Below, piece by piece: positions 40,360-63,390 of a stretch of DNA of 64,000 nucleotides. Every line of letters starts with the position of its first letter. Positions within the stretch are counted from its first letter, which is position 1. Under the pieces are notes generated by a model. That model saw only the letters and a list, made by a program, of their open reading frames with translations, did no database searches and was not told where the DNA came from. The translations under genes were made by a program, and so were the position numbers. The DNA comes from an uncultured Actinomycetota bacterium. GTDB taxonomy: Bacteria; Actinomycetota; Actinomycetes; JAFAQI01. The stretch is taken from the NCBI GenBank assembly GCA_963789615.1, contig CAWBLI010000005.1:1454309-1518308 (forward strand), read 5' to 3'.

Positions 40360-40491
40360 CGCGCCATGGTGTCACGACACGCCGCGAACATGTCCGTGCA
40401 GATTGGCCCGAATGGCTCAACGTCCGCAAGAAATGTGCCGAAGAGATGGAAGCAGCCAGCACCAGCCCGCGCCGTCAGGAGGTCGTCGTTC

Positions 40492-43613: not shown

Positions 43614-44525
43614 CTAGGCGTCGACGACTCGTTCGGCTTTGAGGGCCATGCCGGCGACGTTCAGCAACGCGTCGTCCGGGGTCTGACGCTTCACCACAGC
43701 CAGCGCGACCGGGCCGAGCTCGGTGTGCTGCACCGCCGTACCGAGGAAGCCCACCTGCTTGCCATCGAGCTCGATCGGTGTCTGCGGCGGCGGCAGCTCG
43801 TCAGACGTCCCGTCGAGATGACCGAGGATCAACCGACGCGGCGGCCGGCCCAGATTGTGAACGCGCGCAACGGTTTCCTGGCCCCGATAACACCCCTTGT
43901 TCAGATGTACGGCGTGGCCGATCCAGCCGACCTCGTGCGGAATCGTCCGATGGTCGGTCTCGAACCCGAGCCGCGGCCGATGCCCCGCCACCCGCACCGC
44001 CTCGAACGCGTCGTGACCGACGAGCGGCAGGTCGATCCCGTCGACCCGGTCGCCCAGCTCGGCGCGCGGGACGTAGCAGTCCTGGACCGAGCCTTCGGTC
44101 ACCACGGAGAGGATGGCGACGGACTCGGTCTCGTCGCTCACCTCGACCCGCAGCATGAACCGCATCGAGTCGAGGTACGACGTGAGCGCCGGCGCCGTCC
44201 CTGGCTCGACCCCGATCCATGTCGCCTCGCCGTCGTCGACGATCGCGAGGTGGTGCTCGACGTGTCCGTGCGGCGACAGGATCAGCGCCTCGATCGGCGC
44301 CTCCGGCGCCAGCGACTCGAGATGCTGCGACGTGAGCGAATGCAGCCAGGACAACCGGTCCGGCCCGCTGACCCGTACGACGCCACGATGTGACCGGTCG
44401 ACGACGCCTCCCGTCGTCAGCACCGCACGCTGCTCGCCGAACGGATCGCCGTAGTGCCCGGCGACGCCCGCATCGACACCACGGCCAGGCGCAGCGCCGT
44501 GCCGTTGCGATGGGAGCGTGCTCAC
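43614..44525 (-). CDS. ygfZ: folate-binding YgfZ-family protein (GcvT-like, Fe-S cluster repair/tRNA modification)
   Basis: GcvT-like fold and the conserved C-terminal region ...LNKGCYRGQETVARVHNLGRPPRRL (KGCYxGQE motif). Confidence 0.8.
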   Translation of the reverse strand: MSTLPSQRHGAAPGRGVDAGVAGHYGDPFGEQRAVLTTGGVVDRSHRGVVRVSGPDRLSWLHSLTSQHLESLAPEAPIEALILSPHGHVEHHLAIVDDGEATWIGVEPGTAPALTSYLDSMRFMLRVEVSDETESVAILSVVTEGSVQDCYVPRAELGDRVDGIDLPLVGHDAFEAVRVAGHRPRLGFETDHRTIPHEVGWIGHAVHLNKGCYRGQETVARVHNLGRPPRRLILGHLDGTSDELPPPQTPIELDGKQVGFLGTAVQHTELGPVALAVVKRQTPDDALLNVAGMALKAERVVDA

Positions 44526-48061: not shown

Positions 48062-49018
48062 TCAGCTCCAGTGACGGCCGCCGTCGGTCGTCGCGTAGGC
48101 GCGACCGGCACTGATCAGGAGCCCGTCGTTGCCGGACGCGAGCGCGACTGAGGCCGGCGCGATCGCCTCGGTCAGGCAGCTGCCCTGGTGCCAGGTCCGC
48201 CCAGAGTTGCTGCTGGTGGCGACGCGCAGCCCGGCGCAGTGGAGTGCTCCCGACAGGACGAGTACGGCGTCGCCGGACTCCCCGGCCGCCACGGCCGCGA
48301 CGGTGCCGGCCGGGACCTGGCCGACGGCCTTCCAGCTCGATCCGGCGTTGGTGGTGCGCTCGACGCCGGTGGGGCAGACGACCAGAGCGGTGTTGTTACC
48401 GGTGGCCGACACGGCGACGGGCTTGGCGTTGCCGCTGCACGGCGTCGTCGTGGCCCCGGTCGAGGTGCGCACCCCGCCCTTGAGCGGGAACCACACCGAT
48501 CCCAGCGTGGTGGCGGCGGTCCAGGTGGTGCCGCCGTCGCCGGTCCCGTAGTAGGTCGGTGAGGTGCACGAAGCGGTCGTCCCGACCGCCCAGCCGGCGG
48601 TAGCGCTGGTGAACTCGATCCGCAGCACGTGCGGCGCCGGCGCCGTGAGCGCCGACCACGACCGGCCGCCGTCCGTCGTCTTCGCCAGGTTGGGCTTTCC
48701 GCTGCACCCGCCGTGCGCGCGCCACGCCGTCGTACTGTCGCTGGCCGTGAACAACCGGTTGCGCTCGCCCGGCGTGACCGTGGCGTCCGAGCCCGGCTGT
48801 TGGGAAGTGCTCGCGTTCGGGCTGGCGCTCGCCGAGGGGCTGGGAGTCAGGTTCACGGTGCCGCTGAATGTCACGACCGATCTCGTCGCCGCGCTCTGCG
48901 CCGCACTGGACGGGTCGGAGCGGTGCGAACGGTCGAGCGCAGCATGAACCAGCGCCGCGTCCCCGACCGTCAGCAGGACGACGAGAAGGACGACAGCGAC
49001 CCGCCGGAGCCCTAACAC
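48062..49018 (-). CDS. secreted BNR/Ycf48-like beta-propeller protein
   Basis: Signal peptide. Repeated S-x-D-x-G-x-T-W motifs (TTDGGRSW, TGDGGTTW, TTNAGSSW, SSNSGRTW, TTDGGRHW). Confidence 0.55.
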   Translation of the reverse strand: MLGLRRVAVVLLVVLLTVGDAALVHAALDRSHRSDPSSAAQSAATRSVVTFSGTVNLTPSPSASASPNASTSQQPGSDATVTPGERNRLFTASDSTTAWRAHGGCSGKPNLAKTTDGGRSWSALTAPAPHVLRIEFTSATAGWAVGTTASCTSPTYYGTGDGGTTWTAATTLGSVWFPLKGGVRTSTGATTTPCSGNAKPVAVSATGNNTALVVCPTGVERTTNAGSSWKAVGQVPAGTVAAVAAGESGDAVLVLSGALHCAGLRVATSSNSGRTWHQGSCLTEAIAPASVALASGNDGLLISAGRAYATTDGGRHWS

Positions 49019-49674: not shown

Positions 49675-50211
49675 TTAGCTGCCTGGAGGTGACGGCGATG
49701 GTGTCGGGGTGGCGTCGCCGGCAGCCGGGCTCGGCGGGAGAGCGGAGGCGTTGCCCGGGGTTGCCGTCGGAGTCGCGGTCGACGTCCCGTGCGAAGTGGC
49801 CGTCGACCTGGCAGTCGACGCGGCCGTTGGCGTTGCGGTTGGTTCGCCGCTGGGTACGGCGCTCGGTACGGCGGTGACGCGGCACGGCGTCGCGTACGCC
49901 GTCGCGGGGGCGTGAGAGCTCGGCGAGCTGGCAGACGGCATCGGCGTGGCACATGCGGCGGTCCGATGGTGCGAGCTGCTCGCCGGGGTGACGACCTGGA
50001 CGTGGCCACCGGATCCGCCGGACGACGTGACGGCATGCACGGTTATCGGCGTACCGGCCAGCACCGCCGCTACCCCGGTCGCGGCGTAGGCCTGGTGCCG
50101 TCGATGGATCCGATGGCCGGCCCGCCGTACGACGGTCAGGGTGCCGGGATCCGCGACCGCCCGGTCGGCCAGTCCGCGCATGGCGGCGCGGATCGCATCG
50201 TCGTTCATCAT
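49675..50211 (-). CDS. hypothetical protein, possible anti-sigma factor partner of the ECF sigma (S/T/P/A-rich C-terminus)
   Basis: Start overlaps the sigma-gene stop (ATGA). N-terminal 60 aa globular, one hydrophobic segment GVAAVLAGTPITVHAV, then low-complexity tail. Confidence 0.35.
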   Translation of the reverse strand: MMNDDAIRAAMRGLADRAVADPGTLTVVRRAGHRIHRRHQAYAATGVAAVLAGTPITVHAVTSSGGSGGHVQVVTPASSSHHRTAACATPMPSASSPSSHAPATAYATPCRVTAVPSAVPSGEPTATPTAASTARSTATSHGTSTATPTATPGNASALPPSPAAGDATPTPSPSPPGS

Positions 50212-50753
50212 GTGCCGATCCTCACGGTGGGTTCATCCTCCAGGACATCTGCGTCAGACAGCAGCACGCGCAGCTTGCTCAACCCGCGTGAGGTCTGACT
50301 CTTCACGGTGCCGACCGAGCACTGCAGCACCTCGGCGGCTTGCGCCTCGCTCATGTCATCCAGGTAGCGCAGGACCACTGCGGCGCGCTGGCGGACCGGC
50401 AGGCAGGCGAGCGCTCGCTGCAGGGCATCGAGCTGGTCGACGTGGGCGAAGGCGTCTCTGCCGACGACCTCGGGAAGCTCGGCGGTAGGCCGCTCGCCCC
50501 GCCACCGCCGGCGCCAGGACATCCGCTGCTCGTTGACGATGGCAGTCCGGACGTAAGCCTCGGCCCGCCCGTGGTCGATCTTCGACCAGCGCAGCATGGT
50601 GCGCGTCAACGCCGCCTGGACCAGATCCTGGGCGGCGTTGCGGTCGCCGCAGATCAGATAGGCAAAGCGGGTGAGCGGGAGCAGCCGCGCCTGCACGAAC
50701 TGCGCGAAGCCGTCCTCGTCGCGGATCACACCTGTCACGATGCGCAGCCCCAC
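50208..50753 (-). CDS. ECF (sigma-70 group 4, SigE-like) RNA polymerase sigma factor
   Basis: Region 2 FAYLICGDRNAAQDLVQAALTRT and region 4 LRYLDDMSEAQAAEVLQCSVGTVKSQTSRGLSKLR. Confidence 0.85.
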   Translation of the reverse strand: MGLRIVTGVIRDEDGFAQFVQARLLPLTRFAYLICGDRNAAQDLVQAALTRTMLRWSKIDHGRAEAYVRTAIVNEQRMSWRRRWRGERPTAELPEVVGRDAFAHVDQLDALQRALACLPVRQRAAVVLRYLDDMSEAQAAEVLQCSVGTVKSQTSRGLSKLRVLLSDADVLEDEPTVRIGT

Positions 50754-52690: not shown

Positions 52691-53560
52691 ATGACGCGCT
52701 GGCTGGTGACCGGCGCCGGGGGGCAGCTCGGGACCGACGTCGTCGACGTGCTCCGCGTCTACCGCGCCGACGTCGTCGCCGCTGACCACGCGATGCTCGA
52801 CATCACCGACCCCGACGCCGTCGACGGCGTGCTGCTCGGCGCCGCTCCAGACGTCGTCGTGAACTGCGCCGCCTACACCGACGTCGACGCCGCCGAGACG
52901 AACGAAGGCGCCGCCAGACGCCTCAACACGGTCGGCCCCGGCCTGCTCGCACAGTGGTGCGCACGCCACCGCGCCCGGCTGATCCACGTCTCGACCGACT
53001 ACGTGTTCTCGGGCGACGCCGAGGCACCGTACGACGAAAACGCACCCACCCAGCCGCGATCGGCGTACGGAAGAACCAAGGCCGGTGGCGAGCGCGCGGT
53101 AGCGGCCGCCGGCGGCGACTGCCACGTCGTCCGCACCGCCTGGGTGTACGGCGCCTCCGGCCGCAACTTCGTCAAGACCATCGCCCGGCTGGCCGGCGAG
53201 CGCGAGACGCTCGACGTGGTCGATGACCAGCTCGGCTCGCCGACCTGGTCGCTGCACCTCGCCCGCGCGCTGGTCGCACTGAGCGTCGAGGACGTCCCGC
53301 CGGGCATCTGGCACTGCACCGGCGCCGGCGAGGCGACCTGGTGCGGGCTGGCCCGCGCCGTCCTCGCCGAGATGGGCATGGACCCCGCCCGCGTCAGGGC
53401 GACGACGTCCGAGGCGTTCCGCCGCCCGGCGCCGCGACCGTCGTACTCCGTGCTGTCCGACCGGCGGTGGATCGAGGCCGGGCTACCGACGATGGCGCAC
53501 TGGCGGGACGCCCTGCACGAGGCGTTCCTTGCCGTCGGCGAGGAACTGGTCGGTCGATGA
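52691..53560 (+). CDS. rmlD: dTDP-4-dehydrorhamnose reductase
   Basis: MTRWLVTGAGGQLG ... VSTDYVFSG ... YGRTKAGGE. Confidence 0.9.
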   Translation: MTRWLVTGAGGQLGTDVVDVLRVYRADVVAADHAMLDITDPDAVDGVLLGAAPDVVVNCAAYTDVDAAETNEGAARRLNTVGPGLLAQWCARHRARLIHVSTDYVFSGDAEAPYDENAPTQPRSAYGRTKAGGERAVAAAGGDCHVVRTAWVYGASGRNFVKTIARLAGERETLDVVDDQLGSPTWSLHLARALVALSVEDVPPGIWHCTGAGEATWCGLARAVLAEMGMDPARVRATTSEAFRRPAPRPSYSVLSDRRWIEAGLPTMAHWRDALHEAFLAVGEELVGR

Positions 53561-54327
53561 GCCGATACGCGACCATCGTCCTGCGCGCCTACGGCCGGAC
53601 CGTCGGCATCACCGGGCCCGACACCGCCCTCGGCATCGTCCGCGACCGGCTTCCCCCGTCGTACCGGCCGTCAGCTGACGAGCCGGAGCGGCAGTGGCGG
53701 ATCGGAGTCCGCGGCGGGTTGTTCCGCGCCGACAACGACAGCGACCAGCTCGCGCTCGTCGACAACGTCGTGACCGCGAGCGAGATCGTGCTGAGCGACC
53801 TCGAGCTGTGGGTCGCCGAGCACGCCCGGCGCCACATCTTCGTCCACGCCGGCTGCGTCGTCATCGACGACCGCGCGATTCTCATCCCCGGCCGCAGCAT
53901 GAGCGGCAAGACCAGCCTCACCGCGGCGCTGATCCGCGCCGGGGCGACGTACTGGTCGGACGAGTACGCCGTTCTCGACTCCAGCGGGCAGGTGCGGCCC
54001 TACTCCCGGCGGCTGGCGATCCGACCGTACGACGGCGGACCCCCGCATCGCATGACCGCGACGGATGTCGGCGGCGCCGTGGGTCGCGGGGCGCGACCGG
54101 TCGGGCTGGTCGTCGTGCTGCGCTACGACGCCGGCGCCGGGTGGAACGTCCGGCCGCTGACCCGCGGCCAGGCGGTGCTTCAGCTGCTCGACAACACGAT
54201 CCCGGCCCGGAGCCGGCCCCGCGCGGTGCTGTCGGCGCTGGACCGGGCCACCCAGCACGCGCAGTGCCTGGCCGGCACCCGCGGCGACGCCGACGCCACC
54301 GCCGAACTGATCCTCGCCAAACTCTGA
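53558..54327 (+). CDS. HprK-related serine kinase (HPr kinase C-terminal-domain homolog; HprK-related kinase A/B type)
   Basis: P-loop LIPGRSMSGKTSLTAALIRAG followed by the Asp-rich catalytic region WSDEYAVLD. ATG overlaps the rmlD stop (ATGA). Confidence 0.6.
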
Positions 54328-54424
54328 AACCCGGGGGCGAACCTGCCGATAGCGCCTAGGTGTCCCGTCTTCCTGCCGTGCGTGCCGTTCCCGGCCGACG
54401 GCTTCCCGCCGCATCGGCGACGAC

Positions 54425-55381
54425 GTGGTGCTCTACGACCGTGACGACCACGACGTCCACCTGCTGACCGGCCCGGTCGCAGCGGTCTGGCGCCGCCTGG
54501 AAGGCGACTCGGACGCCCCCGACATCTCCCCGACCGAGCACGACGCCGCGGTGCAGCACCTGCTCGACCTCGGCGTCGTCGTCCCGGTCGGAGGCGACGA
54601 CGGCATCAGCCGCCGCCGGCTGCTGCAGCGCGGCGCCCTCGTCGCCGCCGGCGGTGTCGTGGCGCTGCCGCTGATCGAGTCGATCAGCGCCCCGGCCGCG
54701 TTCGCCGGCTGCTCGTCCGCCGGCTCGATGACCTATGACCTGGTGTCGTCGTTCGGATCCGGCGTGACGTCGAAGAACGCCGCCGTCCCGAACGCGCCGA
54801 CCTTCGTCTGCGGCGGCACCAACGTCACCGGCACCCGGACCGGCAACAACGCGATCGGTCCGTTCAGCTTCACCTTCACCCCGCGGGCAAGCGACGGCTG
54901 CACCGTGGGCGGCAAGGGGATCGGCGACCCGCCAACCTGGGGCCTGGTCTACAACGGCACCGGCGGCGCTGGGAAGCAGTTCATCGACCCGGTCACCGGC
55001 TACAACGACTACGTCGGGTACGCCGCCGGCACCACCGGGCCGCTGCAGCTGACACCGGACACGGCGCACGACGTCGGCATCCGCTTCGACCGGCAGTGCT
55101 CGACGGTCGCGAGCTCGTCGGCGTTGCTTACCTTCAGCCTGACCAACACCTCCGCCAGCAACGTCACCATCGGCTTCGACAAGCTGACCTCCGTGACGGC
55201 GACCAACAACGGCGTCGCCACGACCGGCCTCGGACCGTTCACGCTGGCAGCCGGGAAGAAGCTGGTCGGAACCGCCACCGCGACGCTGACCGCCGCCACG
55301 CCGTACTTCCAGGTCTACGCGGACTGGACCGCCGGCACCAACCAGCCGATCACCGTCACGACGTTCACCGTCACCGTCTGA
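54425..55381 (+). CDS. PqqD/RRE-like domain fused to Tat/lipobox-like segment and secreted Thr/Gly-rich beta-rich domain (paralog 1)
   Basis: VVLYDRDDHDVHLLTGPVAAVWRRLEGDSD...AAVQHLLDLGVV is a PqqD-like wHTH. SRRRLLQRGALVAAGGVVALPLIESISAPAAFAGCSS follows, then about 210 aa T/G/S-rich ending TVTTFTVTV. GTG start; no in-frame start nearer the RRR. Confidence 0.55.
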   Translation: MVLYDRDDHDVHLLTGPVAAVWRRLEGDSDAPDISPTEHDAAVQHLLDLGVVVPVGGDDGISRRRLLQRGALVAAGGVVALPLIESISAPAAFAGCSSAGSMTYDLVSSFGSGVTSKNAAVPNAPTFVCGGTNVTGTRTGNNAIGPFSFTFTPRASDGCTVGGKGIGDPPTWGLVYNGTGGAGKQFIDPVTGYNDYVGYAAGTTGPLQLTPDTAHDVGIRFDRQCSTVASSSALLTFSLTNTSASNVTIGFDKLTSVTATNNGVATTGLGPFTLAAGKKLVGTATATLTAATPYFQVYADWTAGTNQPITVTTFTVTV

Positions 55382-55486: not shown

Positions 55487-56020
55487 GTGCTCCACAGCGG
55501 CTGGGTGGTCAGCATCGACCGCCACATCCAGCTGCAGGTGTTCCTGCACCAGCATCGCGGGCTCCGCGACGCCGCGAACGTCCTGACCTGGTTGGGCGAC
55601 CCGGCCACGGTCGTCGTCGTGGTCGTGTTGTCGACGGTGGTTCTCGCCGTACGCCGGGACTGGGTCCGCGCCGTCGCGCTGCCGGTCGCCGTCGTCGCCG
55701 CGCTTTTGGTGGGCCAGGTGGTGCGGCACGCGATCGGCCGCAGCTCGCCGACCTTCGGCTCGCACCTGCACGTGCCGGGCGGCGACTCGTACCCGTCGGG
55801 GCACGCACTCGGCGCGGCGCTGTGCCTGGCGGCCGTGGCGATCGCGGTACGACGGCGATGGGTGAGCTGGGCGGCGGCCGTCATCGCCGTACTGGTCGCC
55901 GTCGCCCGGGTGTATCTGTTCGCGCACTTCACCAGCGACGTCATCGCCAGCCTGCTCGCGGCGGCCGTCGTCGTCACCGCCGTCGAGGCGGTCGCCGAGA
56001 TGACAGCCGAGCGAACCTAG
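55487..56020 (+). CDS. PAP2-family (phosphatidic acid/undecaprenyl-pyrophosphate phosphatase-like) membrane protein; N-terminus possibly extended to 55386 through a frameshift
   Basis: Conserved PSGH and SR...H phosphatase motifs (PSGHALGAA ... ARVYLFAHFTSDV). Upstream in-frame TM helix lacks a start codon, while ATG 55386 is in the -1 frame. Confidence 0.55.
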   Translation: MLHSGWVVSIDRHIQLQVFLHQHRGLRDAANVLTWLGDPATVVVVVVLSTVVLAVRRDWVRAVALPVAVVAALLVGQVVRHAIGRSSPTFGSHLHVPGGDSYPSGHALGAALCLAAVAIAVRRRWVSWAAAVIAVLVAVARVYLFAHFTSDVIASLLAAAVVVTAVEAVAEMTAERT

Positions 56021-57489
56021 TAGGCCCCGTCGCGCAGGATCACGGCGAAGAACGTCTTCCACAGGATCATCAGGTCCATCGCGAACGACCAGTTCTCGAC
56101 GTAGTACAGGTCGAGGCGGACGCTGTCCTCCCAGCTCAGGTCGGAGCGGCCGGACACCTGCCACAGGCCGGTGATGCCGGGGCGGACCAGCAGCCGGCGC
56201 GCGACGTCGGAGCCGTACTCCGCGACCTCGCTGGGCAGCGGCGGGCGCGGGCCGACGATCGCCATGTCGCCCTTGACGACGTTCCACAGCTGCGGCAGCT
56301 CGTCGAGCGACCACTTGCGCAGCAGGGCACCGAACCGCGTCACCCGCGGGTCGGCACGCATCTTGAACAACAGCCCGTCGGCGGCTTCGTTCTGCTCGCG
56401 CAGCGTCTCCAGCAACGCCTCGGCGTCGGAGCGCATGGTCCGCAGCTTGTAGACCGTGAACTCGCGGCCGTGCTTGCCAACCCGGGTCTGCCTGAACAGC
56501 GGTGCGCCCGGACTGTCGATCCGGATCATCAGCGCGAGCGCGCCGAGCACCGGCAGCATCAGCACGAACGCGATCGTCGCGGTCACCCACTCGAACGTCG
56601 CCTTCACCCGCGGCCGCAGCCCGACCAGGTCCGGCTCGTCGACGTGCAGCAGCGGCAGGCCCGCGACCGGGCGGATGTTGATGCGCGGCCCGGCGACGTC
56701 GGTGAGTGCCGGCGCGACGACCAGGTCGACCCCGGTGCCCTCGAGCTCCCACGACAGGTGCCGCAGCACGAGCGGCGACATGCCGGGCCCGGAGGCGACA
56801 GCAACGGTGTCGGCCTGCGACGCCTTCACGGCCTCGAGCACCTGGGTGAGCGATCCCAGGACAGGCAGGCCGTTCTCGAGCGCGCGACCCGGTCCGGGAG
56901 CGGGCACGCAGACACCGACGACGCGGAAGCCGGCATGAGGCACCCGGCCGAGCTCGTGGGCGAGCTGCGAGACGTTCTGCGCACCACCGACCGCGAGCAC
57001 CCGGTGCTGGTAGCGCCCGAAGGCACGCTGGTGATGCAGCCAGCGACGGGCGGCGTACCGGCCGAGCAGCAGCAGCAGGGTGCCGAGCGGCAGCGCGATC
57101 GCGACGTAGCCGCGGGCCAGCTGGATCTGGAAGATGTAGCAGATGACGGCGGCGCTGGCGCCCAGTCGGAACGACGCTGCACCGACCCGCTTGAACTCCT
57201 CAGCGCCGGTCCCGAGGTAGCGCATCTCATAGGCGCGGCCGACGACGAGCATCAGCAACCAGACCGGGACGACGAGCAGGCTGACCGCCAGGTAGGACAG
57301 GCCGTGGATGGCGGAGCCGTCGTTGGCGCCGAACCGGGCGCGGAACGCGATGAGCGTGCTGACGAGGACGATGAAGGTGTCGATCGAGACCAGGATCCGG
57401 CGGTACTGCAGCTGCCAGTCCGCGGTCCCGACCAGCGGAAGCAGGGTTTCCGCGGGCGGGGTGCTGGTGACGTCGTGACCGCGCTGCAT
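56017..57489 (-). CDS. WbaP-like undecaprenyl-phosphate hexose-1-phosphate transferase (polyprenyl glycosylphosphotransferase, priming enzyme)
   Basis: N-terminal TM bundle. C-terminal bacterial sugar transferase domain ...LFRQTRVGKHGREFTVYKLRTM...LDELPQLWNVVKGDMAIVGPRP. Confidence 0.85.
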   Translation of the reverse strand: MQRGHDVTSTPPAETLLPLVGTADWQLQYRRILVSIDTFIVLVSTLIAFRARFGANDGSAIHGLSYLAVSLLVVPVWLLMLVVGRAYEMRYLGTGAEEFKRVGAASFRLGASAAVICYIFQIQLARGYVAIALPLGTLLLLLGRYAARRWLHHQRAFGRYQHRVLAVGGAQNVSQLAHELGRVPHAGFRVVGVCVPAPGPGRALENGLPVLGSLTQVLEAVKASQADTVAVASGPGMSPLVLRHLSWELEGTGVDLVVAPALTDVAGPRINIRPVAGLPLLHVDEPDLVGLRPRVKATFEWVTATIAFVLMLPVLGALALMIRIDSPGAPLFRQTRVGKHGREFTVYKLRTMRSDAEALLETLREQNEAADGLLFKMRADPRVTRFGALLRKWSLDELPQLWNVVKGDMAIVGPRPPLPSEVAEYGSDVARRLLVRPGITGLWQVSGRSDLSWEDSVRLDLYYVENWSFAMDLMILWKTFFAVILRDGAY

Positions 57490-57654
57490 GGCGCTGGTAC
57501 GGGCGTCGTCGGCCAGGGTCACGGTCTCCCTTCCGATCCGTCCGCGTCGAGAGTTCAGGTTAGGACCGGCGGTCCGGCCTGTCAGACACTTTGGCAACGT
57601 TGTAGGCGTAAGTTCAGTAACCCATTCGGCCTAACAGGCAGCCATCTTGAGGAG

Positions 57655-58842
57655 ACTTCGCTGAGCCGGCTCAAGATCCTTCTGGTGGATCATGTCGCAC
57701 GGCTCTCCGGCGGCGAGATCGCGCTCGCCCGCGTGCTTCCCACGCTCGCGCACGATGTCGACATCCACGTCGTTCTGGGCGAGGAGGGCCCGCTCGTCGC
57801 TCGACTCCGCGAGGCCGGCATCCAGGTCGAGGTCATGCCGCTCGCGGCGGCCGCCCGCGACACCCGCAAGGACACCGTGACGGCGACCGGCGTACCGCTC
57901 GGCGCCGCCTGGGCCACCTCGTCGTACGTGTGGGCGCTGCGACGACGGATCCGCGCGCTCCGACCGGACATCGTGCATACCAACTCCCTCAAGTCCGCCG
58001 TGTACGGCGGGCTGGCCGGCCGGGCTGCCGGCGTACCGGTGCTCTGGCACATCCGCGACCGCATCGCGACCGACTACCTGCCGGCCAGCGCGGTTCGGAT
58101 GATCCGCGGCGCGGCCGGGGTGCTCCCGACCGCGATGGTGACTCCCTCGCGCACCACCATGGACACGATGCCGGGACGGCGGCCGGTGATACGTGCTGTC
58201 GTCCCCGATTCTGTTGAACTGCCTAGTGTCGACGTCTCGGACGCTTCATCGGAGGCGTCGGGGGTTCCCGACGACGTCGCCGACGGGCCTCACCCGTTCC
58301 GGATCGGGATGGTCGGGCGGCTGGCGGAGTGGAAGGGCCAGCACATCGCGATCGAGGCGTTCGCGCGGGCGTTTCCGGATGGCGACGCGCAGCTGTGGTT
58401 GGTCGGCGAGGCGATGTTCGGGGAGTCGGTGTACGTCGACCGGCTGCGCCGGCAGATCGACGCGCTCGGGCTCGGCGACCGGGTCGAGCTCCGCGGCTTC
58501 CGTGACGACGTCTGGTCGGAGCTCGCCCGGCTGGACGTCCTCGTGCACGCCTCGACCAGCCCGGAGCCGTTCGGCCAGGTCGTTCTCGAGGGGATGGTGT
58601 ACGGGCTCCCGGTCATCGCGGCAGCGCCCGGTGGGCCGGCCGAGATCATGGTCGACGAGGTCGACGGGCTGCTGGTGCCGGCGGGATCGGTGGCCGCGTT
58701 GGCGGCGGCTCTCGAACGGCTCGCGTCGGACTCCGGGCTGCGCGACCGGCTGGGGCAAAGCGCCCGAATCACCGCAGCGCGGTACACACCGGCCAGAACC
58801 GCCTCCGGTCTGCTGAGCGTGTATCGGCGGATGGTCGATTAA
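57655..58842 (+). CDS. GT4 family glycosyltransferase
   Basis: ...HIRDRIATDY... and C-terminal EPFGQVVLEGMVYGLPVIAAAPGGPAEIMVDEVDGLLV (E-x7-E motif region). Start codon uncertain (CTG/TTG about 57652-57661). Confidence 0.75.
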   Translation, partial: TSLSRLKILLVDHVARLSGGEIALARVLPTLAHDVDIHVVLGEEGPLVARLREAGIQVEVMPLAAAARDTRKDTVTATGVPLGAAWATSSYVWALRRRIRALRPDIVHTNSLKSAVYGGLAGRAAGVPVLWHIRDRIATDYLPASAVRMIRGAAGVLPTAMVTPSRTTMDTMPGRRPVIRAVVPDSVELPSVDVSDASSEASGVPDDVADGPHPFRIGMVGRLAEWKGQHIAIEAFARAFPDGDAQLWLVGEAMFGESVYVDRLRRQIDALGLGDRVELRGFRDDVWSELARLDVLVHASTSPEPFGQVVLEGMVYGLPVIAAAPGGPAEIMVDEVDGLLVPAGSVAALAAALERLASDSGLRDRLGQSARITAARYTPARTASGLLSVYRRMVD

Positions 58843-58932: not shown

Positions 58933-60288
58933 ATGTCGTCGACGGCACCGCGGCGCGTCCCCGGCGTGGTCGAGCGACCGATCGGCGACGAGATCGTCGC
59001 CTACGAGCCGGCGCAGGGCGCAGCGCATGTCCTGCGTGGCATCACGGCCACGGTCTGGCGCTGCTGCGACGGTGACCGCGACCTCCCGGCGATCGCCGTC
59101 GCCAACGGCCTGAGCCTCGACGACGTCGTCGCCGCGGTCGACGAGCTGGAGTCGGCGGGTCTGCTGTTCGGCGTACCCGGGGGGATCGACCGGCGACGGC
59201 TGCTGCAACGCGGCATGCTGCTCGGCGGTGCGGTCGCGGGCGTCATGAGCATCGAGTCGATCCTGGCGCCGCTGCCGTTCGCGGCTGCCAGCACGCCGGT
59301 GACGATCATCAACCGGGCGATCGCGGGGACCGTCACGGGCACCATCCCGAAGGGCTTCCTGACGCTGCACTTCACGATCATCGGTGGGGGCGGCGGCGGC
59401 AGCTACTCGCAGGGCACGTTCGTCAGCGGCGCCGGCGGCGACGCGTCGTCGATCACCGGGTCGATCACCCTCGCGTCCAACCCGAGCGGCACCGTGGTCA
59501 CCGCGGTCGTGGGGGCCGGCGGCGCGGGAGGCGTCTCGACGCCGGGAGTGGTGGCGGGCGGGTCTGGCTTCGGCAACGGCGGCAGCGCCAACACGGCTGG
59601 CCCCGGCGGAGGCGGAACCGCGATAACCATCGGCGGCCAGGCGATCGTCGTCTCCGGTGGCGGTGGCGGTGGCGGCCGGTCTTTCGTCAACGACGACAGC
59701 ACCGGTGGCATCGGTGGTGACGCCGGCGACGCCGCGCTGACCAATGTCGCGGACCCGGGGTCGGGTGGCGGTGCGTCGAACGACGGCAACTTCGCCGGTG
59801 GCGGCGGTGGCGGTGGCCAGACCAGCGGCGGTGGCGTGGCTTCGGGTGGTGCGGGTGGCGCCGGCGGCCCGGCTCCGACCGGGCGCGGGATCACGGGTGG
59901 CAAGAAGGGCGTGGCTGGCTCGGTCGGCACCGCGGGCACGGCGGCGGCGGGTGGCAATGGCGGGGCCGGCGGCACCGGCGGCTTTGGCGGGACCGCGGTC
60001 GAGAACGCCTACGCAAGCGGTGGCGGCGGTGGCGGCGGCTGGGGTGGCGGCGGTGGCGGCGGCGAGGGCGGCAACAACGGCCAGTCCGCAGGCTCCGGCG
60101 GTGGCGGCGGTGGCGGCGGCTCCAACTACACGAATGGCCGGACCGGATTCACCGTGGCGATCGCGTCGATCGGGGATGTCGTCGGGTCCGGCAACGGCGC
60201 CGGTGGTGCAGGCGGCGTGTCGACCGCGTCCGGCGGAGCCGGCAACCCGGGCCAGCCCGGCTACGCGATCGTCAGCTACAGCCCCTGA
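58933..60288 (+). CDS. PqqD/RRE-like domain fused to Tat-like segment and secreted Gly-rich repeat domain (paralog 2)
   Basis: VERPIGDEIVAYEPAQGAAHVLRGITATVWRCCDGDRDLPAIAVANGLSLDDVVAAVDELESAGLLF is a full PqqD-like fold. DRRRLLQRGMLLGGAVAGVMSIESILAPLPFAAAS follows, then about 330 aa of GGxGG-type Gly-rich repeats ending YAIVSYSP. Confidence 0.55.
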   Translation: MSSTAPRRVPGVVERPIGDEIVAYEPAQGAAHVLRGITATVWRCCDGDRDLPAIAVANGLSLDDVVAAVDELESAGLLFGVPGGIDRRRLLQRGMLLGGAVAGVMSIESILAPLPFAAASTPVTIINRAIAGTVTGTIPKGFLTLHFTIIGGGGGGSYSQGTFVSGAGGDASSITGSITLASNPSGTVVTAVVGAGGAGGVSTPGVVAGGSGFGNGGSANTAGPGGGGTAITIGGQAIVVSGGGGGGGRSFVNDDSTGGIGGDAGDAALTNVADPGSGGGASNDGNFAGGGGGGGQTSGGGVASGGAGGAGGPAPTGRGITGGKKGVAGSVGTAGTAAAGGNGGAGGTGGFGGTAVENAYASGGGGGGGWGGGGGGGEGGNNGQSAGSGGGGGGGGSNYTNGRTGFTVAIASIGDVVGSGNGAGGAGGVSTASGGAGNPGQPGYAIVSYSP

Positions 60289-60396: not shown

Positions 60397-61686
60397 TTAG
60401 CGGCGGGTGAGGTCGGCGAGCGCCCCGAAGGCGCGGCCGACCCGCGGCTGGTCTCGCAACACGGGTACGGCGAATGGCCGCTGCTGGCCGTCTCCGGTCA
60501 CGGCCGGTGCACCGAACTCCGAACGTGCCGCGGCCCGCGACCCCGACCCGGCACGAGCGGCATGCGGCACCGAGCCGGCGGCGACGGCGCGGGCGTAGAG
60601 ATCCGCCTGCCGGGCAGCCACGACATCCCACTGCTTGTCCCGGGCGGCGGCGATGCCGCGCTGCCGCAACGCCTCCCACTCGACCGGGTCCTGGCCGAGC
60701 CGAGCGACGGCGCGCGCCAGCCCCACCCGGTCGCCCTCCGCCGAGAGCCAGGCGCCACCGGCCGCCACCTCGGGGATGGTCCCGCTGGCATATCCGGCGA
60801 CGGCCGCGCCGCACGCCTGCGCCTCGACGACGCCGCGCCCGAACTGCTCCACCCAGCGGCTGGTCGCCTGGCTCGGTACGACGACGACGTGGCTGCCGCG
60901 GTAGATCTCGGCCAGCGAGCTCTCGTCGGCCCACGGCAGCAGGTCGACGTGGCCGGTCACCCCCCACTTCGACGCGAGCTCGGGGATCCGCGCCGCCTCC
61001 GGGCCGGACCCGACCACCACCAGCCGGGCGTCGCGGTGCCGGCGTACCTCGGCCAGGACCTCGACCGCGTCGGCGACGCCCTTCTCCGGCACCAGCCGCC
61101 CGGCGAGCGCCAGCCGGAACAACTCGTCGGCGTGCTGCTGGTGACCCGGCGAGAACACGCCCGGGTCGTGACCGAGCGGCAACACCTCGATCAGCCCGGC
61201 GTAGCCACGACCGCGGACCACCGACGCGGCCTGCCGCGAGCAGGGCGCGATCGCGCTCAACCGTCCGAACGCCTGCCGCTCCCACGAGGTGTACGGCGGC
61301 GGGTAGCGCTTGTCGAGGTTCTGCGCCGTGTAACCGACCGCCGGCGTCCCGACTGGCAGCGCCGCGAGGACCTGATGCGTGACCGCGCTGAACGGTTCCT
61401 CGTGCAGGTCCACCAGATCCGGAGCCACCCGGCGGATCACAGCGACCAGCGCGGCTGGATCGGCGTACCGATGGCGGTTGACGTCACCAGCGCGGCTCAC
61501 CGGCAGTGAGACGACCTCGAACGGCTCATCGGAGAGCGTCGACTCGGAGCCGGACTCCGGCCACGACGACGGGACCACGAGCACGACGTCGACGCCGGCA
61601 GCGACCAGCGCGCGTTCCCGCGCGCGGTGCGACCGGTCGCGTCCGGCGTGGTAGATCCGCAGGACGCGCAGCCGCTGCTCACCCAC
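60397..61686 (-). CDS. GT4 family glycosyltransferase
   Basis: ...VVVGSGPEAARI... GT4 fold with C-terminal ...VVPSQATSRWVEQFGRGVVEAQACGAAVAGYASGTIPEV. Confidence 0.75.
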   Translation of the reverse strand: MGEQRLRVLRIYHAGRDRSHRARERALVAAGVDVVLVVPSSWPESGSESTLSDEPFEVVSLPVSRAGDVNRHRYADPAALVAVIRRVAPDLVDLHEEPFSAVTHQVLAALPVGTPAVGYTAQNLDKRYPPPYTSWERQAFGRLSAIAPCSRQAASVVRGRGYAGLIEVLPLGHDPGVFSPGHQQHADELFRLALAGRLVPEKGVADAVEVLAEVRRHRDARLVVVGSGPEAARIPELASKWGVTGHVDLLPWADESSLAEIYRGSHVVVVPSQATSRWVEQFGRGVVEAQACGAAVAGYASGTIPEVAAGGAWLSAEGDRVGLARAVARLGQDPVEWEALRQRGIAAARDKQWDVVAARQADLYARAVAAGSVPHAARAGSGSRAAARSEFGAPAVTGDGQQRPFAVPVLRDQPRVGRAFGALADLTRR

Positions 61687-62368
61687 CCGAGCACGCTACC
61701 GATCGGTCGGGGTCAGGATCCGGTCCGCACCGCGGCGAGGAGGACGAGGACGAGGACGACGCATCGTCGAGCCGCAGCGCCGGGATCGTGACGTGCGTGA
61801 TCGGGCCGATGGCGACCGCGTAGAGCACCGTGCCCACGCCGACGGTCCCGCCCAGCAACCAGCCGGTGACCAGCACGCAGGCCTCGATCACGGTGCGGAC
61901 CACCCGCACCGAATGTCCGCGCGCCGCGATGCCCGTGGTGAGGCCGTCGCGCGGGCCAGGGCCGAGCCCGGCTCCGATATAGGCGCCGGTCGCGATCCCG
62001 TTGAGTCCGACAGCTCCCACCAGTACGACGATCCGCCACCACAGCGCGTGCGGCGTCGGCACGTAGTCAAGCGTGGCGTTGATGACCACGCCGACGACCG
62101 CCACATTGCAGACGGTGCCCAGGCCGGGCCGCTGCCGCAGCGGGATCCAGCCGAGCAGGACGACAGCGCCCACGAGGATCGCCCAGGTTCCGACCTGCAG
62201 CCCGAAAGTGCGCGACAACCCCTGCTGCAGCACGTCCCACGGGTCGACCCCGAGCCCAGCCAGCAGCAGCAAGCCGTCGCTGAACCCGTACAGCGCAAGG
62301 CCCGCGAACAGCAGCGCGACCCGGGCGGGTCGGCGCGAGGCGGGGACCGGCGCGAGCAGCAACACCAC
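61679..62368 (-). CDS. YczE/YitT-like integral membrane protein
   Basis: LLFAGLALYGFSDGLLLLAGLGVDPWDVLQQGLSRTFGLQVGTW is the YczE family N-terminus. About 6 TM helices. Poly-Ser C-terminal tail. Confidence 0.55.
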   Translation of the reverse strand: MVLLLAPVPASRRPARVALLFAGLALYGFSDGLLLLAGLGVDPWDVLQQGLSRTFGLQVGTWAILVGAVVLLGWIPLRQRPGLGTVCNVAVVGVVINATLDYVPTPHALWWRIVVLVGAVGLNGIATGAYIGAGLGPGPRDGLTTGIAARGHSVRVVRTVIEACVLVTGWLLGGTVGVGTVLYAVAIGPITHVTIPALRLDDASSSSSSSSPRCGPDPDPDRSVACSGG

Positions 62369-62421: not shown

Positions 62422-63390
62422 TTGGCAGGCGCCATGCTCACCGACGTCCTCGCCGACTCGACCGCCGCGCCCGACGACCTGGCGCGCGACGGTGTCGCGC
62501 TGCTTGCCGCGCATTTGCTGGTCGGGCGGCTGGACGAGCGGCAGCGTCGGACCCTGATCGAAGCGGCGATGCCGTGGACCCTCGCGACGATGACCTCGGA
62601 GATCGCCGCCCGCGACGCCAGCGCCACCCTCAGCGAAGCCGGCATCGACCACGCGGTCATCAAGGGGCCGATCCTCGCGGCGGCCTGGCGCGAGACGTTC
62701 GGCAGCGACGTCCGGACCTACACCGACGTCGACATCCTGGTACGCCGGTCCGACGTACCCGCGGTCACCCAGCGACTGGTTTCTGAGCTCGGCGCGACCG
62801 AGTCGGTGAGGTCGGTCGGCGAGATCGGCTTCGGGCTGCCCAGCGGCGCCGCCATCGACCTGCACTGGCTCCTCATCAACGACGAGGGCGTGGTCGCACG
62901 GCACCGGCTCGACACCGACGACCTGCTGCGCCGGGTCCGCACCGACGGTCCGCTACGCCAGCTCGACCCGGTCGACTCGGTGATCCACGTCAGCCTGCAC
63001 GCCGTCATCAGCGACGGCAGCCGGCTGGCGGCGGCCATCGACCTCGCCGCGCTGCTGCGCACCGGCGACATCGATCTGGACCTGCTGGTACGACGGGCCC
63101 ACCACCACCGCGCGGTACTGCCGCTGGCCGTCATGACCGACCGCGCCGCCGCCGTGACCGGCTTCGCCGAGGCGGTCGAGCTGGCCCGCCGGCTGCCCAG
63201 CTCGCCGTGGCGCACCGCCTGCCGGCGCTTTGCCGGGTCGGTGCGGCCGGCGAGCGGCCGACGCTGGACCGGCGGGGAGATGATCCGCGCGACCCGGTAC
63301 AGCACGCTGAGCTCGGTCGCCGCGGTGGTTGCCGCGCTGCCCACCAACGTGCGGACCCAGCGCGAGCTGCGTCGCGGGGCACTTCGGTGA
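62422..63390 (+). CDS. uncharacterised nucleotidyltransferase family protein (PF14907-like)
   Basis: ...HAVIKGPILAAAWRETFGSDVRTYTDVDILVRRSD ... DLHWLL matches the lasso-cluster-associated 'nucleotidyltransferase' family. hG[GS]-x9-13-Dh[DE]h pattern is present as KGP...DVDIL. Confidence 0.55.
   Translation: MAGAMLTDVLADSTAAPDDLARDGVALLAAHLLVGRLDERQRRTLIEAAMPWTLATMTSEIAARDASATLSEAGIDHAVIKGPILAAAWRETFGSDVRTYTDVDILVRRSDVPAVTQRLVSELGATESVRSVGEIGFGLPSGAAIDLHWLLINDEGVVARHRLDTDDLLRRVRTDGPLRQLDPVDSVIHVSLHAVISDGSRLAAAIDLAALLRTGDIDLDLLVRRAHHHRAVLPLAVMTDRAAAVTGFAEAVELARRLPSSPWRTACRRFAGSVRPASGRRWTGGEMIRATRYSTLSSVAAVVAALPTNVRTQRELRRGALR

What the first reader, a model, noticed from the sequence alone, without database searches (positions are those of the whole stretch)
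54425..55381. PqqD/RRE-like domain placed N-terminal to a twin-arginine/lipobox-like segment (paralog 1)
An apparent export signal is internal: about 60 aa of cytoplasmic PqqD-like wHTH precede SRRRLLQRGALVAAGGVVALPLIESISAPAAFAGCSS and a Thr/Gly-rich beta-rich domain. No alternative start codon exists between the PqqD-like region and the RRR. This implies either a type-II membrane topology with a cytoplasmic peptide-binding domain on a surface protein, or a cleavable N-terminal pro-region that carries its own recognition element. Neither arrangement is described for RRE domains.
Basis: seen in the sequence. Interest (0 to 1): 0.8.

Follow-up and report, generated by a model that had tools for sequence, protein, structure and literature searches.

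The report
Peptide-binding domain fused before export signal
The gene encodes a surface lipoprotein precursor with a peptide-recognition (RRE/PqqD) domain fused in front of a twin-arginine export signal; thousands of precursors in many phyla share this undescribed layout, next to a kinase and a nucleotidyltransferase.

Summary
All close orthologs carry about 21 more N-terminal residues. The window lacks one G at 54403/54404, so the true start is probably GTG 54360 and the 318-aa ORF loses strand beta1. An in-frame GTG also exists at codon 43.

The N-terminal domain has an RRE/PqqD fold: high-confidence AlphaFold models, with top PDB matches all RREs (TbiB1, TMt 0.71-0.74). The following segment looks like a Tat signal. 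RR is invariant in 346 unique relatives and S/T precedes it in 94%. A conserved Pro and an AxA site, or a lipobox (FAG|C here), follow.

This RRE + Tat-like signal module heads a hypervariable cargo in at least 3,520 protein clusters, mostly 20-70 aa Cys-rich peptides. It is genomically linked to an HprK-related kinase (65/80 kinase loci) and an NTP_transf_5 nucleotidyltransferase (68/80). All three are in the window, inside a polysaccharide locus.

The closest known system is the Bacillota LPP / phosphorylated lasso peptide machinery, which has a discrete RRE, its own peptidase and its own exporter.

Best reading: a self-contained leader. The cis RRE recruits the modifying enzymes in the cytoplasm, then Tat exports the cargo and a signal peptidase cleaves it. 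Export, cleavage and modification are inferred, not shown.

The parts
54360..54403 (+). Probable true 5' end of the gene (GTG 54360; VSRLPAVRAVPGRRL). It is out of frame with the rest because one G is missing between 54403 and 54404.
   Evidence: DNA alignment with four ortholog contigs. Six-frame reading and in-silico correction give a 340-aa product matching P0001.
54425..54607 (+). RRE/PqqD-like winged-helix domain, as present in the mechanical ORF. It lacks strand beta1 and starts within beta2.
   Evidence: All 8 family N-termini hit TIGR04353, best E 2.7e-5. Pfam PqqD hits 3 of 8. The AF2 model of ortholog P0001 has pLDDT 85-97 for residues 1-80 and Foldseek matches TbiB1 at TMt 0.56-0.61, prob 1.00. 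The paralog-2 model matches better: TMt 0.71-0.74, rmsd 2.2-2.5 A.
54608..54709 (+). Twin-arginine-type signal segment SRRRLLQRGALVAAGGVVALPLIESISAPAAFAG: n-region motif, h-region with a conserved P-L-I-x-S-I, and a c-region.
   Evidence: RR is 100% conserved and S/T at -1 is 94% in 346 members. TIGR01409 TAT_signal_seq hits 9 of 57 members, best E 1.9e-5. Profile positions 87-122 match the Tat signals of NosZ, NapA and AioB in the PDB.
54710..54712 (+). Lipobox cysteine (Cys96 of the ORF), the predicted +1 residue of the mature lipoprotein.
   Evidence: Invariant AGCS in all orthologs. A PROSITE-style lipobox pattern is satisfied. Its profile column 122 aligns just after the AxA site of non-lipobox members.
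54710..55381 (+). Cargo: 223 aa, Thr/Gly-rich and beta-rich, orphan outside the close orthologs. The C-terminal ~90 aa are predicted as a beta-sandwich.
   Evidence: phmmer finds only the orthologs. AF2 pLDDT is below 50 for residues 97-227 and 78-84 for ~250-320. The weak CBM35/36/6 and BclA-like Foldseek matches have large rmsd and are not reliable.
53557..54327 (+). HprK-related P-loop kinase-like protein (256 aa), immediately upstream on the same strand.
   Evidence: TIGR04352 HprK_rel_A E 8e-14 for the window protein, and 7 of 7 aligned homologs hit it (best 1.4e-19), all below the 200-bit cutoff. Homologs occur in 5 of 6 distant loci and in at least 587 genome loci.
58933..60288 (+). Paralog 2: complete RRE domain + Tat-like signal (DRRRLLQRG...APLPFAAA|S) + 330-aa Gly-rich cargo.
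   Evidence: AF2 pLDDT 91-98 for residues 11-80 with bbb-aaa topology. A4 profile E 7e-38.
62422..63390 (+). NTP_transf_5 (PF14907) uncharacterised nucleotidyltransferase, the third conserved partner.
   Evidence: Pfam 63.3 bits against a 31.2-bit cutoff. Homologs occur in 68 of 80 kinase-anchored loci.
55487..58842 (.). Polysaccharide-synthesis genes between the two paralogs: PAP2 phosphatase (55487..56020 +), polyprenyl glycosylphosphotransferase (56017..57597 -) and a GT4 glycosyltransferase (57724..58842 +).
   Evidence: Pfam and NCBIfam. The same order is seen on ortholog contig L001.

Best explanation
The gene encodes a precursor with three parts. (i) An N-terminal RRE/PqqD peptide-binding domain of about 85 aa that stays in the cytoplasm. 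(ii) A twin-arginine (Tat) type signal peptide whose c-region ends in a signal-peptidase site, here a lipobox FAG|C. (iii) a hypervariable cargo, here a 223-aa Thr/Gly-rich lipoprotein.

Together with the adjacent HprK-related kinase and the NTP_transf_5 nucleotidyltransferase it forms a conserved three-gene system found in many phyla.

Proposed mechanism. The cis RRE acts as a built-in leader handle. It holds the newly made precursor in the cytoplasm and recruits the kinase and nucleotidyltransferase. These decorate the precursor; the best candidate site is the conserved Ser/Thr at +2 of the mature end. This is by analogy with LppK, which polyphosphorylates Ser3 of the LPP core, and with PsmK/PsmN, which phosphorylate and then hexosylate. 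The post-translational Tat pathway then exports the finished cargo. Signal peptidase II (here) or I (most relatives) cuts it off, leaving the RRE plus signal behind.

Shown: the architecture, the fold, the motif conservation and the gene linkage. Inferred: Tat dependence, cleavage, lipidation, the modification and its site, and what the RRE binds.

In this window the copy carries a 1-nt 5' deletion, so it is either a sequencing error or a damaged allele.
For: Fold: AF2 models are confident for the N-terminal domain. The top Foldseek PDB matches are all RRE domains: TbiB1, LynD/TruD, PbtF, TfuB1, CteB. The profile hits TbiB1 at E 3.8e-5. TIGR04353 'HPr-rel-A system PqqD family peptide chaperone' is the commonest NCBIfam hit, 29 of 57 members. 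Most relatives carry PF05402 in precomputed annotation.

Signal: RR 100%, S/T(-1) 94%, K/R at position 96 84%, P116 85%, A121 83% in 346 unique members. TAT_signal_seq and formate_TAT models hit some members.

Cleavage: conservation stops right after the AxA/lipobox, and the cargo is unrelated between members. The lipobox Cys is invariant in orthologs.

Extracytoplasmic destination: typical cargos are 20-70 aa with 5-12 Cys. Loci with a MauE/DoxX-thioredoxin fusion have Cys-richer cargos (median 8.5 vs 6, Mann-Whitney p = 3e-6).

Linkage: of 80 genome loci found through the kinase alone, 65 encode the module within 10 kb, usually as the next gene on the same strand, and 68 encode NTP_transf_5. 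No dedicated protease or exporter is conserved, which fits use of the general Tat and signal-peptidase machinery.

Precedents: in LPP, an HprK-like kinase + NTP transferase + RRE act on precursors with a conserved leader and variable C-termini inside capsule loci, Ser3 of the core is phosphorylated, and a signal-peptidase-I-like enzyme removes the leader (PMC13381572). PsmK/PsmN are in PMC6993621. Internal Tat motifs work in actinobacterial Rieske proteins (PMC3471235, PMC5449189).
Against: There are no experimental data for any member.

The window proteins themselves fall below the curated cutoffs of PF05402, TIGR04353, TIGR01409 and TIGR04352.

The kinase assignment rests on a partial match of about 73 residues around the P-loop. 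Pfam Hpr_kinase_C reaches only E 0.01-0.07, and PDB HprK only E 0.64.

A folded soluble domain N-terminal to a Tat signal is unprecedented; the known internal Tat signals follow membrane helices.

The hydrophobic core (Kyte-Doolittle mean 1.82 over 19 residues) could be a stable anchor. Its unusually conserved P-x-[IV]-x-[ST]-[IV] motif (85-99%) is not typical of signal peptides and may have another role.

AF2 did not dock the signal or cargo onto the RRE: pLDDT is 48-62 there.

Fifteen of the 80 kinase loci, and locus L007, lack a visible partner within reach.

The +2 Ser/Thr (88%) could reflect something other than phosphorylation.
Confidence: 0.6

Rival explanations
1. Uncleaved type-II (N-in) membrane protein. 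The RR plus hydrophobic stretch is a signal-anchor, so the RRE domain sits permanently on the cytoplasmic face and the cargo on the outside. The protein would then act as a transmembrane adaptor or sensor linking the kinase and NTP-transferase to the surface or to polysaccharide assembly.
For: The hydrophobic core reaches a Kyte-Doolittle mean of 1.82 over 19 residues. The positively charged RR..R flank lies on the N side. The motif inside the hydrophobic segment is unusually conserved (P108 85%, I/V110 97%, S/T112 99%), which suggests a specific membrane or protein contact. The genes sit in Wzz/Wzy/GT loci.
Against: The c-region is conserved as P-x-x-A-x-A, or as a lipobox with invariant Cys, and is followed at once by hypervariable sequence. 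Most cargos are tiny Cys-rich peptides that look like released products. RR invariance is stricter than the positive-inside rule needs.
Confidence: 0.17
2. The cis RRE is a built-in Tat proofreading chaperone, working like NapD, TorD or DmsD. It would bind its own signal peptide, for example the conserved P-x-I-x-S-I-x-A-P strand, to delay export until folding, disulfide-partner loading or modification is complete. The kinase and NTP-transferase would act on something else, such as the polysaccharide.
For: RREs bind short peptides as an added beta-strand (TbiB1 and LppB complexes). The signal's h-region is far more conserved than usual. The Tat signal of NapA, a known chaperone-bound signal (PDB 2pq4_B), is among the profile matches.
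Against: AF2 gives no confident intramolecular docking. The tight kinase-to-precursor gene adjacency argues that the enzymes act on the precursor. This is partly a variant of the main model rather than an exclusive rival.
Confidence: 0.15
3. Annotation or assembly artefact in this copy. The real product starts at the internal GTG 54551 as an ordinary Tat lipoprotein with a ~20-residue n-region, and the upstream 'PqqD' part is untranslated remains of a frameshifted gene.
For: There is a 1-nt deletion at 54403/54404 relative to all orthologs. An in-frame GTG lies at codon 43. The 318-aa ORF lacks beta1 of the domain.
Against: The upstream out-of-frame piece still encodes the ortholog's peptide AVRAVPGRRL, so the lesion is very recent or an error. 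There is no Shine-Dalgarno sequence before 54551. The fused architecture is intact in 7 orthologs, in paralog 2 and in thousands of relatives.
Confidence: 0.05
4. The N-terminal domain is a DNA-binding winged helix (ArsR/MarR-like), which would make this a membrane-tethered transcription factor.
For: There are weak profile matches to MarR/ArsR/Lrp helices at E 0.003-0.03. Pfam HTH_47 hits at E 0.0013. One metagenome source calls a relative 'ArsR family regulator'.
Against: The secondary-structure order is bbb-aaa, the RRE signature, and every top structural match is an RRE. PqqD-family models dominate the hits. The gene linkage is to RiPP-type tailoring enzymes.
Confidence: 0.03

Closest known systems
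LPP (linear polyphosphorylated peptide) RiPP system of Bacillota: LppA/K/B/S/D/N (Popov et al., Nat Commun 2026, PMC13381572)
   Same: It has an HprK-like kinase, an uncharacterised NTP transferase and an RRE. There are one to three precursors per locus with a conserved N-terminal part and highly variable C-termini (35-200 aa). A signal-peptidase-type enzyme removes the leader. The modified Ser lies close to the cleavage site (Ser3 of the core, against a conserved S/T at +2 here). The genes are embedded in capsule or exopolysaccharide loci.
   Different: There the RRE is a separate protein (LppB) that binds a YxxP leader motif. Here the RRE is the N-terminus of the precursor itself and no YxxP motif is present. 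LPP uses a dedicated SipW-like peptidase and an MsbA-like exporter. Here neither is conserved and a Tat-type signal with an AxA/lipobox site takes their place. LPP is reported as restricted to Bacillota. This family is found in Actinomycetota, Acidobacteriota, Gemmatimonadota, Armatimonadota, Planctomycetota and others. Cargos here can be 200-330-aa domains.
Phosphorylated/glycosylated lasso peptides (paeninodin; pseudomycoidin PsmK/PsmN, PMC6993621)
   Same: An HprK-family kinase plus an 'uncharacterised nucleotidyltransferase' act as a tailoring pair on an RRE-recognised precursor: Ser phosphorylation followed by hexosylation.
   Different: No lasso cyclase or B2 protease is conserved in the loci. 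The modification there is on the C-terminal Ser. The RRE there is discrete (B1).
NCBIfam 'HPr-rel-A system' (TIGR04352 HprK-related kinase A + TIGR04353 PqqD family peptide chaperone)
   Same: These are the best-scoring curated families for both the kinase and the RRE domain, and the two genes are adjacent.
   Different: Scores are far below the curated cutoffs (51 against 200 bits for the kinase). TIGR04353 models a stand-alone domain of 74 positions, without a signal or cargo.
Internal twin-arginine signals of dual Sec-Tat membrane proteins (actinobacterial Rieske Sco2149; PMC3471235, PMC5449189)
   Same: A Tat motif that is not at the N-terminus and still directs translocation of the downstream domain.
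   Different: There the upstream part is made of Sec-inserted membrane helices and the Tat segment stays as an anchor. Here the upstream part is a soluble folded domain and the segment ends in a cleavage site.
Structured RiPP leaders (NHLP/Nif11 leader domains; PMC12455567)
   Same: A long, folded N-terminal leader on a precursor engages the modifying enzymes by protein-protein contacts.
   Different: The fold is different (nitrile-hydratase-like, not RRE). There is no export signal inside the leader.

Membership tests
PqqD / RiPP recognition element (PF05402 superfamily) | [quoted passage not shown] | tested here: met
   Paralog 2 residues 13-74 model as E,E,E,H,H,H with pLDDT 91-98. Ortholog P0001 models as E,E,E(+E),H,H with a shortened middle helix, pLDDT 85-97. 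The top PDB matches are RREs. In the window ORF itself beta1 is lost to the frameshift.
PqqD / RiPP recognition element (PF05402 superfamily) | Sequence match above Pfam's gathering score | tested here: not met
   Target: no Pfam hit. Paralog 2: 14-19 bits against a 23.4-bit cutoff. Many relatives do carry PF05402 in precomputed annotation.
PqqD / RiPP recognition element (PF05402 superfamily) | Binds a leader peptide and presents it to a modifying enzyme | not testable with these tools
   No complex prediction or assay was available. Single-chain AF2 showed no confident docking.
Twin-arginine (Tat) signal peptide | [ST]-R-R-x-[FLMV]-[LIMV]-[KR] motif followed by a moderately hydrophobic h-region | tested here: met
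   The target reads SRRRLLQRG + ALVAAGGVVALPLIESISA. Family-wide, RR is 100%, S/T 94% and K/R 84%. TIGR01409 hits reach a best E of 1.9e-5, below cutoff for the target (14 against 16.7 bits).
Twin-arginine (Tat) signal peptide | c-region with a signal-peptidase site | tested here: met
   P116, A119-x-A121 in the family; F-A-G|C in the target.
Twin-arginine (Tat) signal peptide | Located at the N-terminus of the precursor | tested here: not met
   It is preceded by 61 residues in the ORF, ~83 in orthologs and 85 in paralog 2, forming a folded domain.
Twin-arginine (Tat) signal peptide | Export depends on TatABC | not testable with these tools
   This needs genetics (a tatC mutant, RR->KK).
Bacterial lipoprotein | Lipobox [LVI..][AST..][GAS]C at the end of a signal peptide, with the Cys conserved | tested here: met
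   AFAG-C96 satisfies a PROSITE PS51257-style pattern. The Cys is invariant in 8 orthologs. Only 16 of 346 family members have Cys at this column, so lipidation is a subfamily trait.
NCBIfam HPr-rel-A system (TIGR04352 + TIGR04353) | Kinase and PqqD proteins score above the equivalog cutoffs | tested here: not met
   Kinase: 51 bits against a 200-bit cutoff. The PqqD domain scores below the 35-bit cutoff (13.6 bits for paralog 2); best E-value among relatives 6e-8.
NCBIfam HPr-rel-A system (TIGR04352 + TIGR04353) | Kinase and PqqD genes are adjacent | tested here: met
   Kinase 53557..54327 is followed by the target at 54360/54425. The same holds in most of the 80 genome loci.
LPP RiPP system (PMC13381572) | HprK-like kinase + uncharacterised NTP transferase in the locus | tested here: met
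   Direct sequence comparison with LppK and LppN was not possible because those sequences were not held.
LPP RiPP system (PMC13381572) | Discrete RRE protein recognising a YxxPxVLxHQxIxFET leader | tested here: not met
   The RRE is fused to the precursor. The family consensus has no such motif.
LPP RiPP system (PMC13381572) | Dedicated archaeal-type signal peptidase I (SipW-like) and MsbA-like exporter | tested here: not met
   All-against-all clustering of ORFs in 80 loci found no further conserved family. An ABC ATPase occurs in only 16 loci.
LPP RiPP system (PMC13381572) | Polyphosphorylation of a Ser near the start of the core | not testable with these tools
   There is only the suggestive 88% S/T at +2.

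The most novel reading that the evidence does not exclude
A large, multi-phylum and so far undescribed class of ribosomal precursors, mostly small disulfide-rich secreted peptides and sometimes whole surface proteins, has a leader made of an RRE domain in cis followed by a Tat signal. The substrate carries its own recognition element, which recruits an HprK-type kinase and an NTP-transferase for cytoplasmic phospho- or glyco-modification. Modification is coupled to post-translational Tat export and to leader removal by the housekeeping signal peptidases. This would be the first RiPP-like pathway with a substrate-borne RRE and the first Tat signal operating behind a folded cytoplasmic domain.
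Probability: 0.45. Interest if true: 0.85.

Novelty: new variant of a known kind. Interest (0 to 1): 0.8.

Why it matters
RREs are the one class-independent handle used for RiPP genome mining, and they are taken to belong to the enzymes, not the substrate. A precursor that carries its own RRE reverses that logic and would be missed or misread by current miners. A 2025 survey notes that 21% of PF05402 proteins are 'too long' and carry no other annotation.

For Tat biology, a folded domain upstream of the signal tests the hairpin-insertion model. It also suggests a built-in way to hold a substrate back until it has been modified.

In practical terms, the family offers thousands of small Cys-rich secreted peptides from soil Acidobacteriota, Actinomycetota and Gemmatimonadota. 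They have a clearly predictable cleavage site and a three-gene minimal system, so the idea can be tested directly by heterologous expression.

The link to polysaccharide loci, shared with LPP, hints at a role in the cell envelope or biofilm.

Tried and rejected
- Direct Pfam and NCBIfam scans of the target gave nothing or sub-threshold hits. Family-level scans were needed.
- A word-indexed homology search with the paralog-2 N-terminus found one protein. Only the exhaustive profile search exposed the family.
- The search for related loci with the diverse module alignment failed because no conserved 7-10-mer exists. I anchored on the kinase instead.
- The cargo has no homologs beyond its orthologs. 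Its AF2 model is poor for residues 97-227, and the CBM-like and BclA-like matches have rmsd of 8-15 A, so I do not assign a cargo function.
- Low hydrophobicity as an argument against a membrane anchor: rejected after computing a Kyte-Doolittle mean of 1.82 over 19 residues.
- A profile of the kinase against PDB sequences gave spurious RecA P-loop hits and HprK at only E 0.64. Pfam Hpr_kinase_C is marginal.
- There is no MauE-redoxin gene in the window, which fits its Cys-poor cargos.
- The AFDB fold library was unavailable.
- Literature searches for PqqD or RRE together with twin-arginine or Tat signal returned nothing relevant.
- The DNA-binding wHTH reading was rejected on topology and fold matches.
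Full report
**1. What is in the sequence**

The mechanical ORF 54425..55381 (+) encodes 318 aa. It reads as follows:
- About 61 residues that look like a winged-helix domain.
- S62-RRRLLQRG, then a hydrophobic stretch ALVAAGGVVALPLIESISAPAAFAG.
- Cys96 (nt 54710).
- A 223-aa cargo rich in Thr (17.9%) and Gly (13.5%).

A second gene, 58933..60288 (+), shares 42% identity over the first ~104 residues. This includes DRRRLLQRG and IESI-AP. After that it carries an unrelated Gly-rich cargo.

**2. Corrections to the observation**

Seven full-length orthologs from metagenomes (79-90% identity) are 334-343 aa. They begin about 21 residues earlier, with xVRPxxGRLLSRRVGDD.

Aligning the DNA shows that the window reads CGGCT-TCCCG where four ortholog contigs read CGGCTGTCCCG. 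One G is missing between 54403 and 54404.

The frame entered from GTG 54360 still spells ...AVRAVPGRRL, as in ortholog P0001. Restoring the base gives a 340-aa product. So the window copy is frameshifted or mis-assembled at its 5' end. The ORF as listed lacks the first beta-strand of the domain.

It has no obvious ribosome-binding site. Paralog 2 has ATG with a GAAAGGGG Shine-Dalgarno sequence and no canonical internal start before its RRR.

**3. The N-terminal domain is an RRE/PqqD fold**

The single window proteins score below the curated cutoffs. At family level the signal is consistent:
- All 8 close members hit TIGR04353, 'HPr-rel-A system PqqD family peptide chaperone' (best E 2.7e-5).
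- In a 57-member diverse set, 29 hit TIGR04353. Others hit ScmD, PqqD, ApyI and lasso PqqD models.
- Most relatives carry PF05402 in precomputed annotation.
- A profile of the module hits the lasso-peptide RRE TbiB1 in the PDB at E 3.8e-5.

AlphaFold2 on paralog 2 residues 1-125, with that alignment, gives pLDDT 91-98 for residues 11-80 and the order bbb-aaa. Foldseek against the PDB returns only RRE domains at the top. These are TbiB1 (TMt 0.71-0.74, rmsd 2.2-2.5 A), LynD/TruD, PbtF, TfuB1 and CteB.

The ortholog of the target (P0001) gives pLDDT 85-97 for residues 1-80 and again matches TbiB1 (TMt 0.56-0.61). Its middle helix is shortened.

**4. The next segment looks like a Tat signal with a cleavage site**

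In 346 unique family members aligned to the profile:

| Profile position | Residue | Conservation |
|---|---|---|
| 90-91 | R-R | 100% |
| 89 (preceding residue) | S/T | 94% |
| 96 | K/R | 84% |
| 108 | Pro | 85% |
| 110 | I/V | 97% |
| 112 | S/T | 99% |
| 116 | Pro | 85% |
| 119 / 121 | Ala | 67% / 83% |
| 123 | S/T | 88% |

Positions 108-112 lie in a Gly/Ala-rich hydrophobic stretch. After position 123, conservation ends.

In the target the same columns read P-A-A-F-A-G-C-S. The lipobox Cys therefore falls exactly at the +1 position after the AxA site of the others. It passes a lipobox pattern and is invariant in the orthologs.

TAT_signal_seq and formate_TAT models hit a minority of members (best E 1.9e-5). 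The profile's positions 87-122 align to the Tat signals of NosZ, NapA and AioB.

One caveat applies. The hydrophobic core reaches a Kyte-Doolittle mean of 1.82 over 19 residues. Hydropathy alone therefore does not exclude a stable anchor.

**5. The module heads a very large family with hypervariable cargo**

The exhaustive profile search found 3,520 cluster representatives (clustered at 50% identity) at E<=1e-3, and 399 at E<=1e-10. Nearly all of the 150 listed matches span both halves of the module. Lengths of the listed 150 are 111-425 aa.

The parts after the cleavage site are unrelated to each other:
- Most are 20-70 aa peptides with 5-12 Cys; the median cargo length is 51 aa.
- Some are Gly-rich, like paralog 2 and the Acidimicrobiaceae locus L012.
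- Some are Ser/Thr-rich beta domains.

The target's own cargo has no homologs beyond its orthologs. Its structure was not predicted with confidence, except for a C-terminal beta-sandwich.

**6. Conserved partners**

The gene just upstream (53557..54327) is a 256-aa P-loop protein. Its best curated match is TIGR04352, HprK-related kinase A (E 8e-14). All 7 aligned homologs hit it, best 1.4e-19, and all are far below the cutoff. Some also hit HprK_rel_B and true HprK models.

At 62422..63390 lies an NTP_transf_5 (PF14907) nucleotidyltransferase that scores above the Pfam cutoff.

In six distant contigs reached through the precursor, five also encode the kinase. Several encode NTP_transf_5 and a MauE/DoxX-thioredoxin fusion, often among Wzz/Wzy/GT genes.

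Searching one genome per species with the kinase alone gave at least 587 loci. The best 80 come from Acidobacteriota, Solirubrobacterales, Acidimicrobiaceae (56% identity, the nearest), Mycobacteriales, Gemmatimonadota, Armatimonadota, Gemmataceae, Methylomirabilis and Clostridia MAGs.

Among those 80 loci:
- 65 encode the RRE-Tat module within 10 kb, and 60 encode the complete module. It is usually the next gene on the same strand, and some loci have 2-4 copies.
- 68 encode NTP_transf_5.
- 26 encode the MauE-redoxin protein.

The MauE-redoxin loci have Cys-richer cargos (median 8.5 vs 6 Cys, p = 3e-6). This is indirect support that the cargo ends up outside the cytoplasm. All-against-all clustering found no other conserved partner, and in particular no protease or exporter.

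**7. How it most likely works**

Shown:
- the tripartite architecture;
- the RRE fold;
- the Tat-like motif and cleavage-type c-region;
- the three-gene linkage.

Inferred: the RRE stays cytoplasmic and serves as a leader handle in cis. It would recruit the kinase and nucleotidyltransferase, or bind the conserved P-x-I-x-S-I-x-A-P strand of its own signal. The precursor is modified before export. Tat is chosen because it is post-translational. A signal peptidase then cleaves: SPase II with lipidation for the target, SPase I for most relatives.

The conserved S/T at +2 is a candidate acceptor, by analogy with Ser3 of the LPP core.

I put the overall model at about 0.6. I put the specific modification site at about 0.3.

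**8. Comparison with what is known**

The nearest described system is LPP in Bacillota (PMC13381572). It has:
- an HprK-like kinase, LppK;
- an NTP transferase, LppN;
- a discrete RRE, LppB;
- a SipW-like leader peptidase;
- an MsbA-like exporter;
- precursors with a conserved leader and variable C-termini;
- a position inside capsule loci.

Ser3 of the LPP core is polyphosphorylated, and the family is reported as restricted to Bacillota. PsmK/PsmN in pseudomycoidin phosphorylate and then hexosylate (PMC6993621).

The present system shares the enzyme pair, the variable-cargo logic and the polysaccharide context. It differs in the fused RRE, the Tat-type signal that replaces the dedicated peptidase and exporter, the phyla, and the cargo size.

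Internal Tat motifs are known only behind membrane helices (PMC3471235, PMC5449189). Folded leaders are known with other folds (NHLP).

A 2025 RRE survey notes many over-length PF05402 proteins without other annotation, but does not describe this layout. My searches found no paper that combines PqqD/RRE with Tat. The search covers open-access papers and bioRxiv only.

**9. Verdict**

The finding is real and is the tip of a large family. The window's copy has a 5' frameshift that needs checking. I rate it a new variant of a known kind (RRE / HprK-kinase / NTP-transferase peptide maturation), with interest 0.8.

Noticed in passing
window 54403/54404: A single-base (G) deletion relative to four ortholog contigs shifts the frame of the first ~15 codons of the target gene. 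A 9-nt in-frame gap relative to L004 lies just upstream.
   Followed up: yes
window 58933..60288; L012 8046..9359 (-): Paralog 2 carries a 330-aa Gly-rich cargo (runs of GGGGG, 'TVTGTIPKGFLTLHFTIIGGGGGG'). Similar Gly-rich cargos follow the same module in P0040, P0070, P0110, P0122 and in an Acidimicrobiaceae MAG. This is a recurrent cargo class of unknown function.
   Followed up: partly
family-wide (profile positions 108-116); window 54665..54691: Inside the hydrophobic segment the motif P-x-[IV]-x-[ST]-[IV]-x-A-P is 85-99% conserved. That is far more than expected for a signal-peptide h-region, and it may be a recognition strand for the RRE or the kinase.
   Followed up: partly
L005, L008-L011 and 26 of 80 kinase loci: Fused MauE/DoxX + AhpC-TSA/thioredoxin membrane proteins accompany the system where the cargos are Cys-rich. 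They are absent from the window.
   Followed up: partly
window 61679..62368 (-): A 229-aa ORF with good GC3 lies between a GT4 gene and the NTP_transf_5 gene. It has no Pfam match.
   Followed up: no
window 50208..50753 (-) and 49675..50211 (-): An ECF-type sigma-70 gene is followed by a Pro/Thr/Ser-rich ORF, possibly an anti-sigma factor. They lie beside the rmlA/B/C/D genes and are syntenic with ortholog contig L001.
   Followed up: no
window 44522..46897 (-), 40042..41490 (+), 48062..49018 (-): A GAF-PAS histidine kinase, a DUF4388 protein and a BNR/Sortilin-like repeat protein lie upstream of the polysaccharide locus.
   Followed up: no
L005 / L052 (Solirubrobacterales MAG CAWFTK010000005.1): Four copies of the RRE-Tat precursor lie around one kinase gene, interspersed with several transposase genes.
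   Followed up: no
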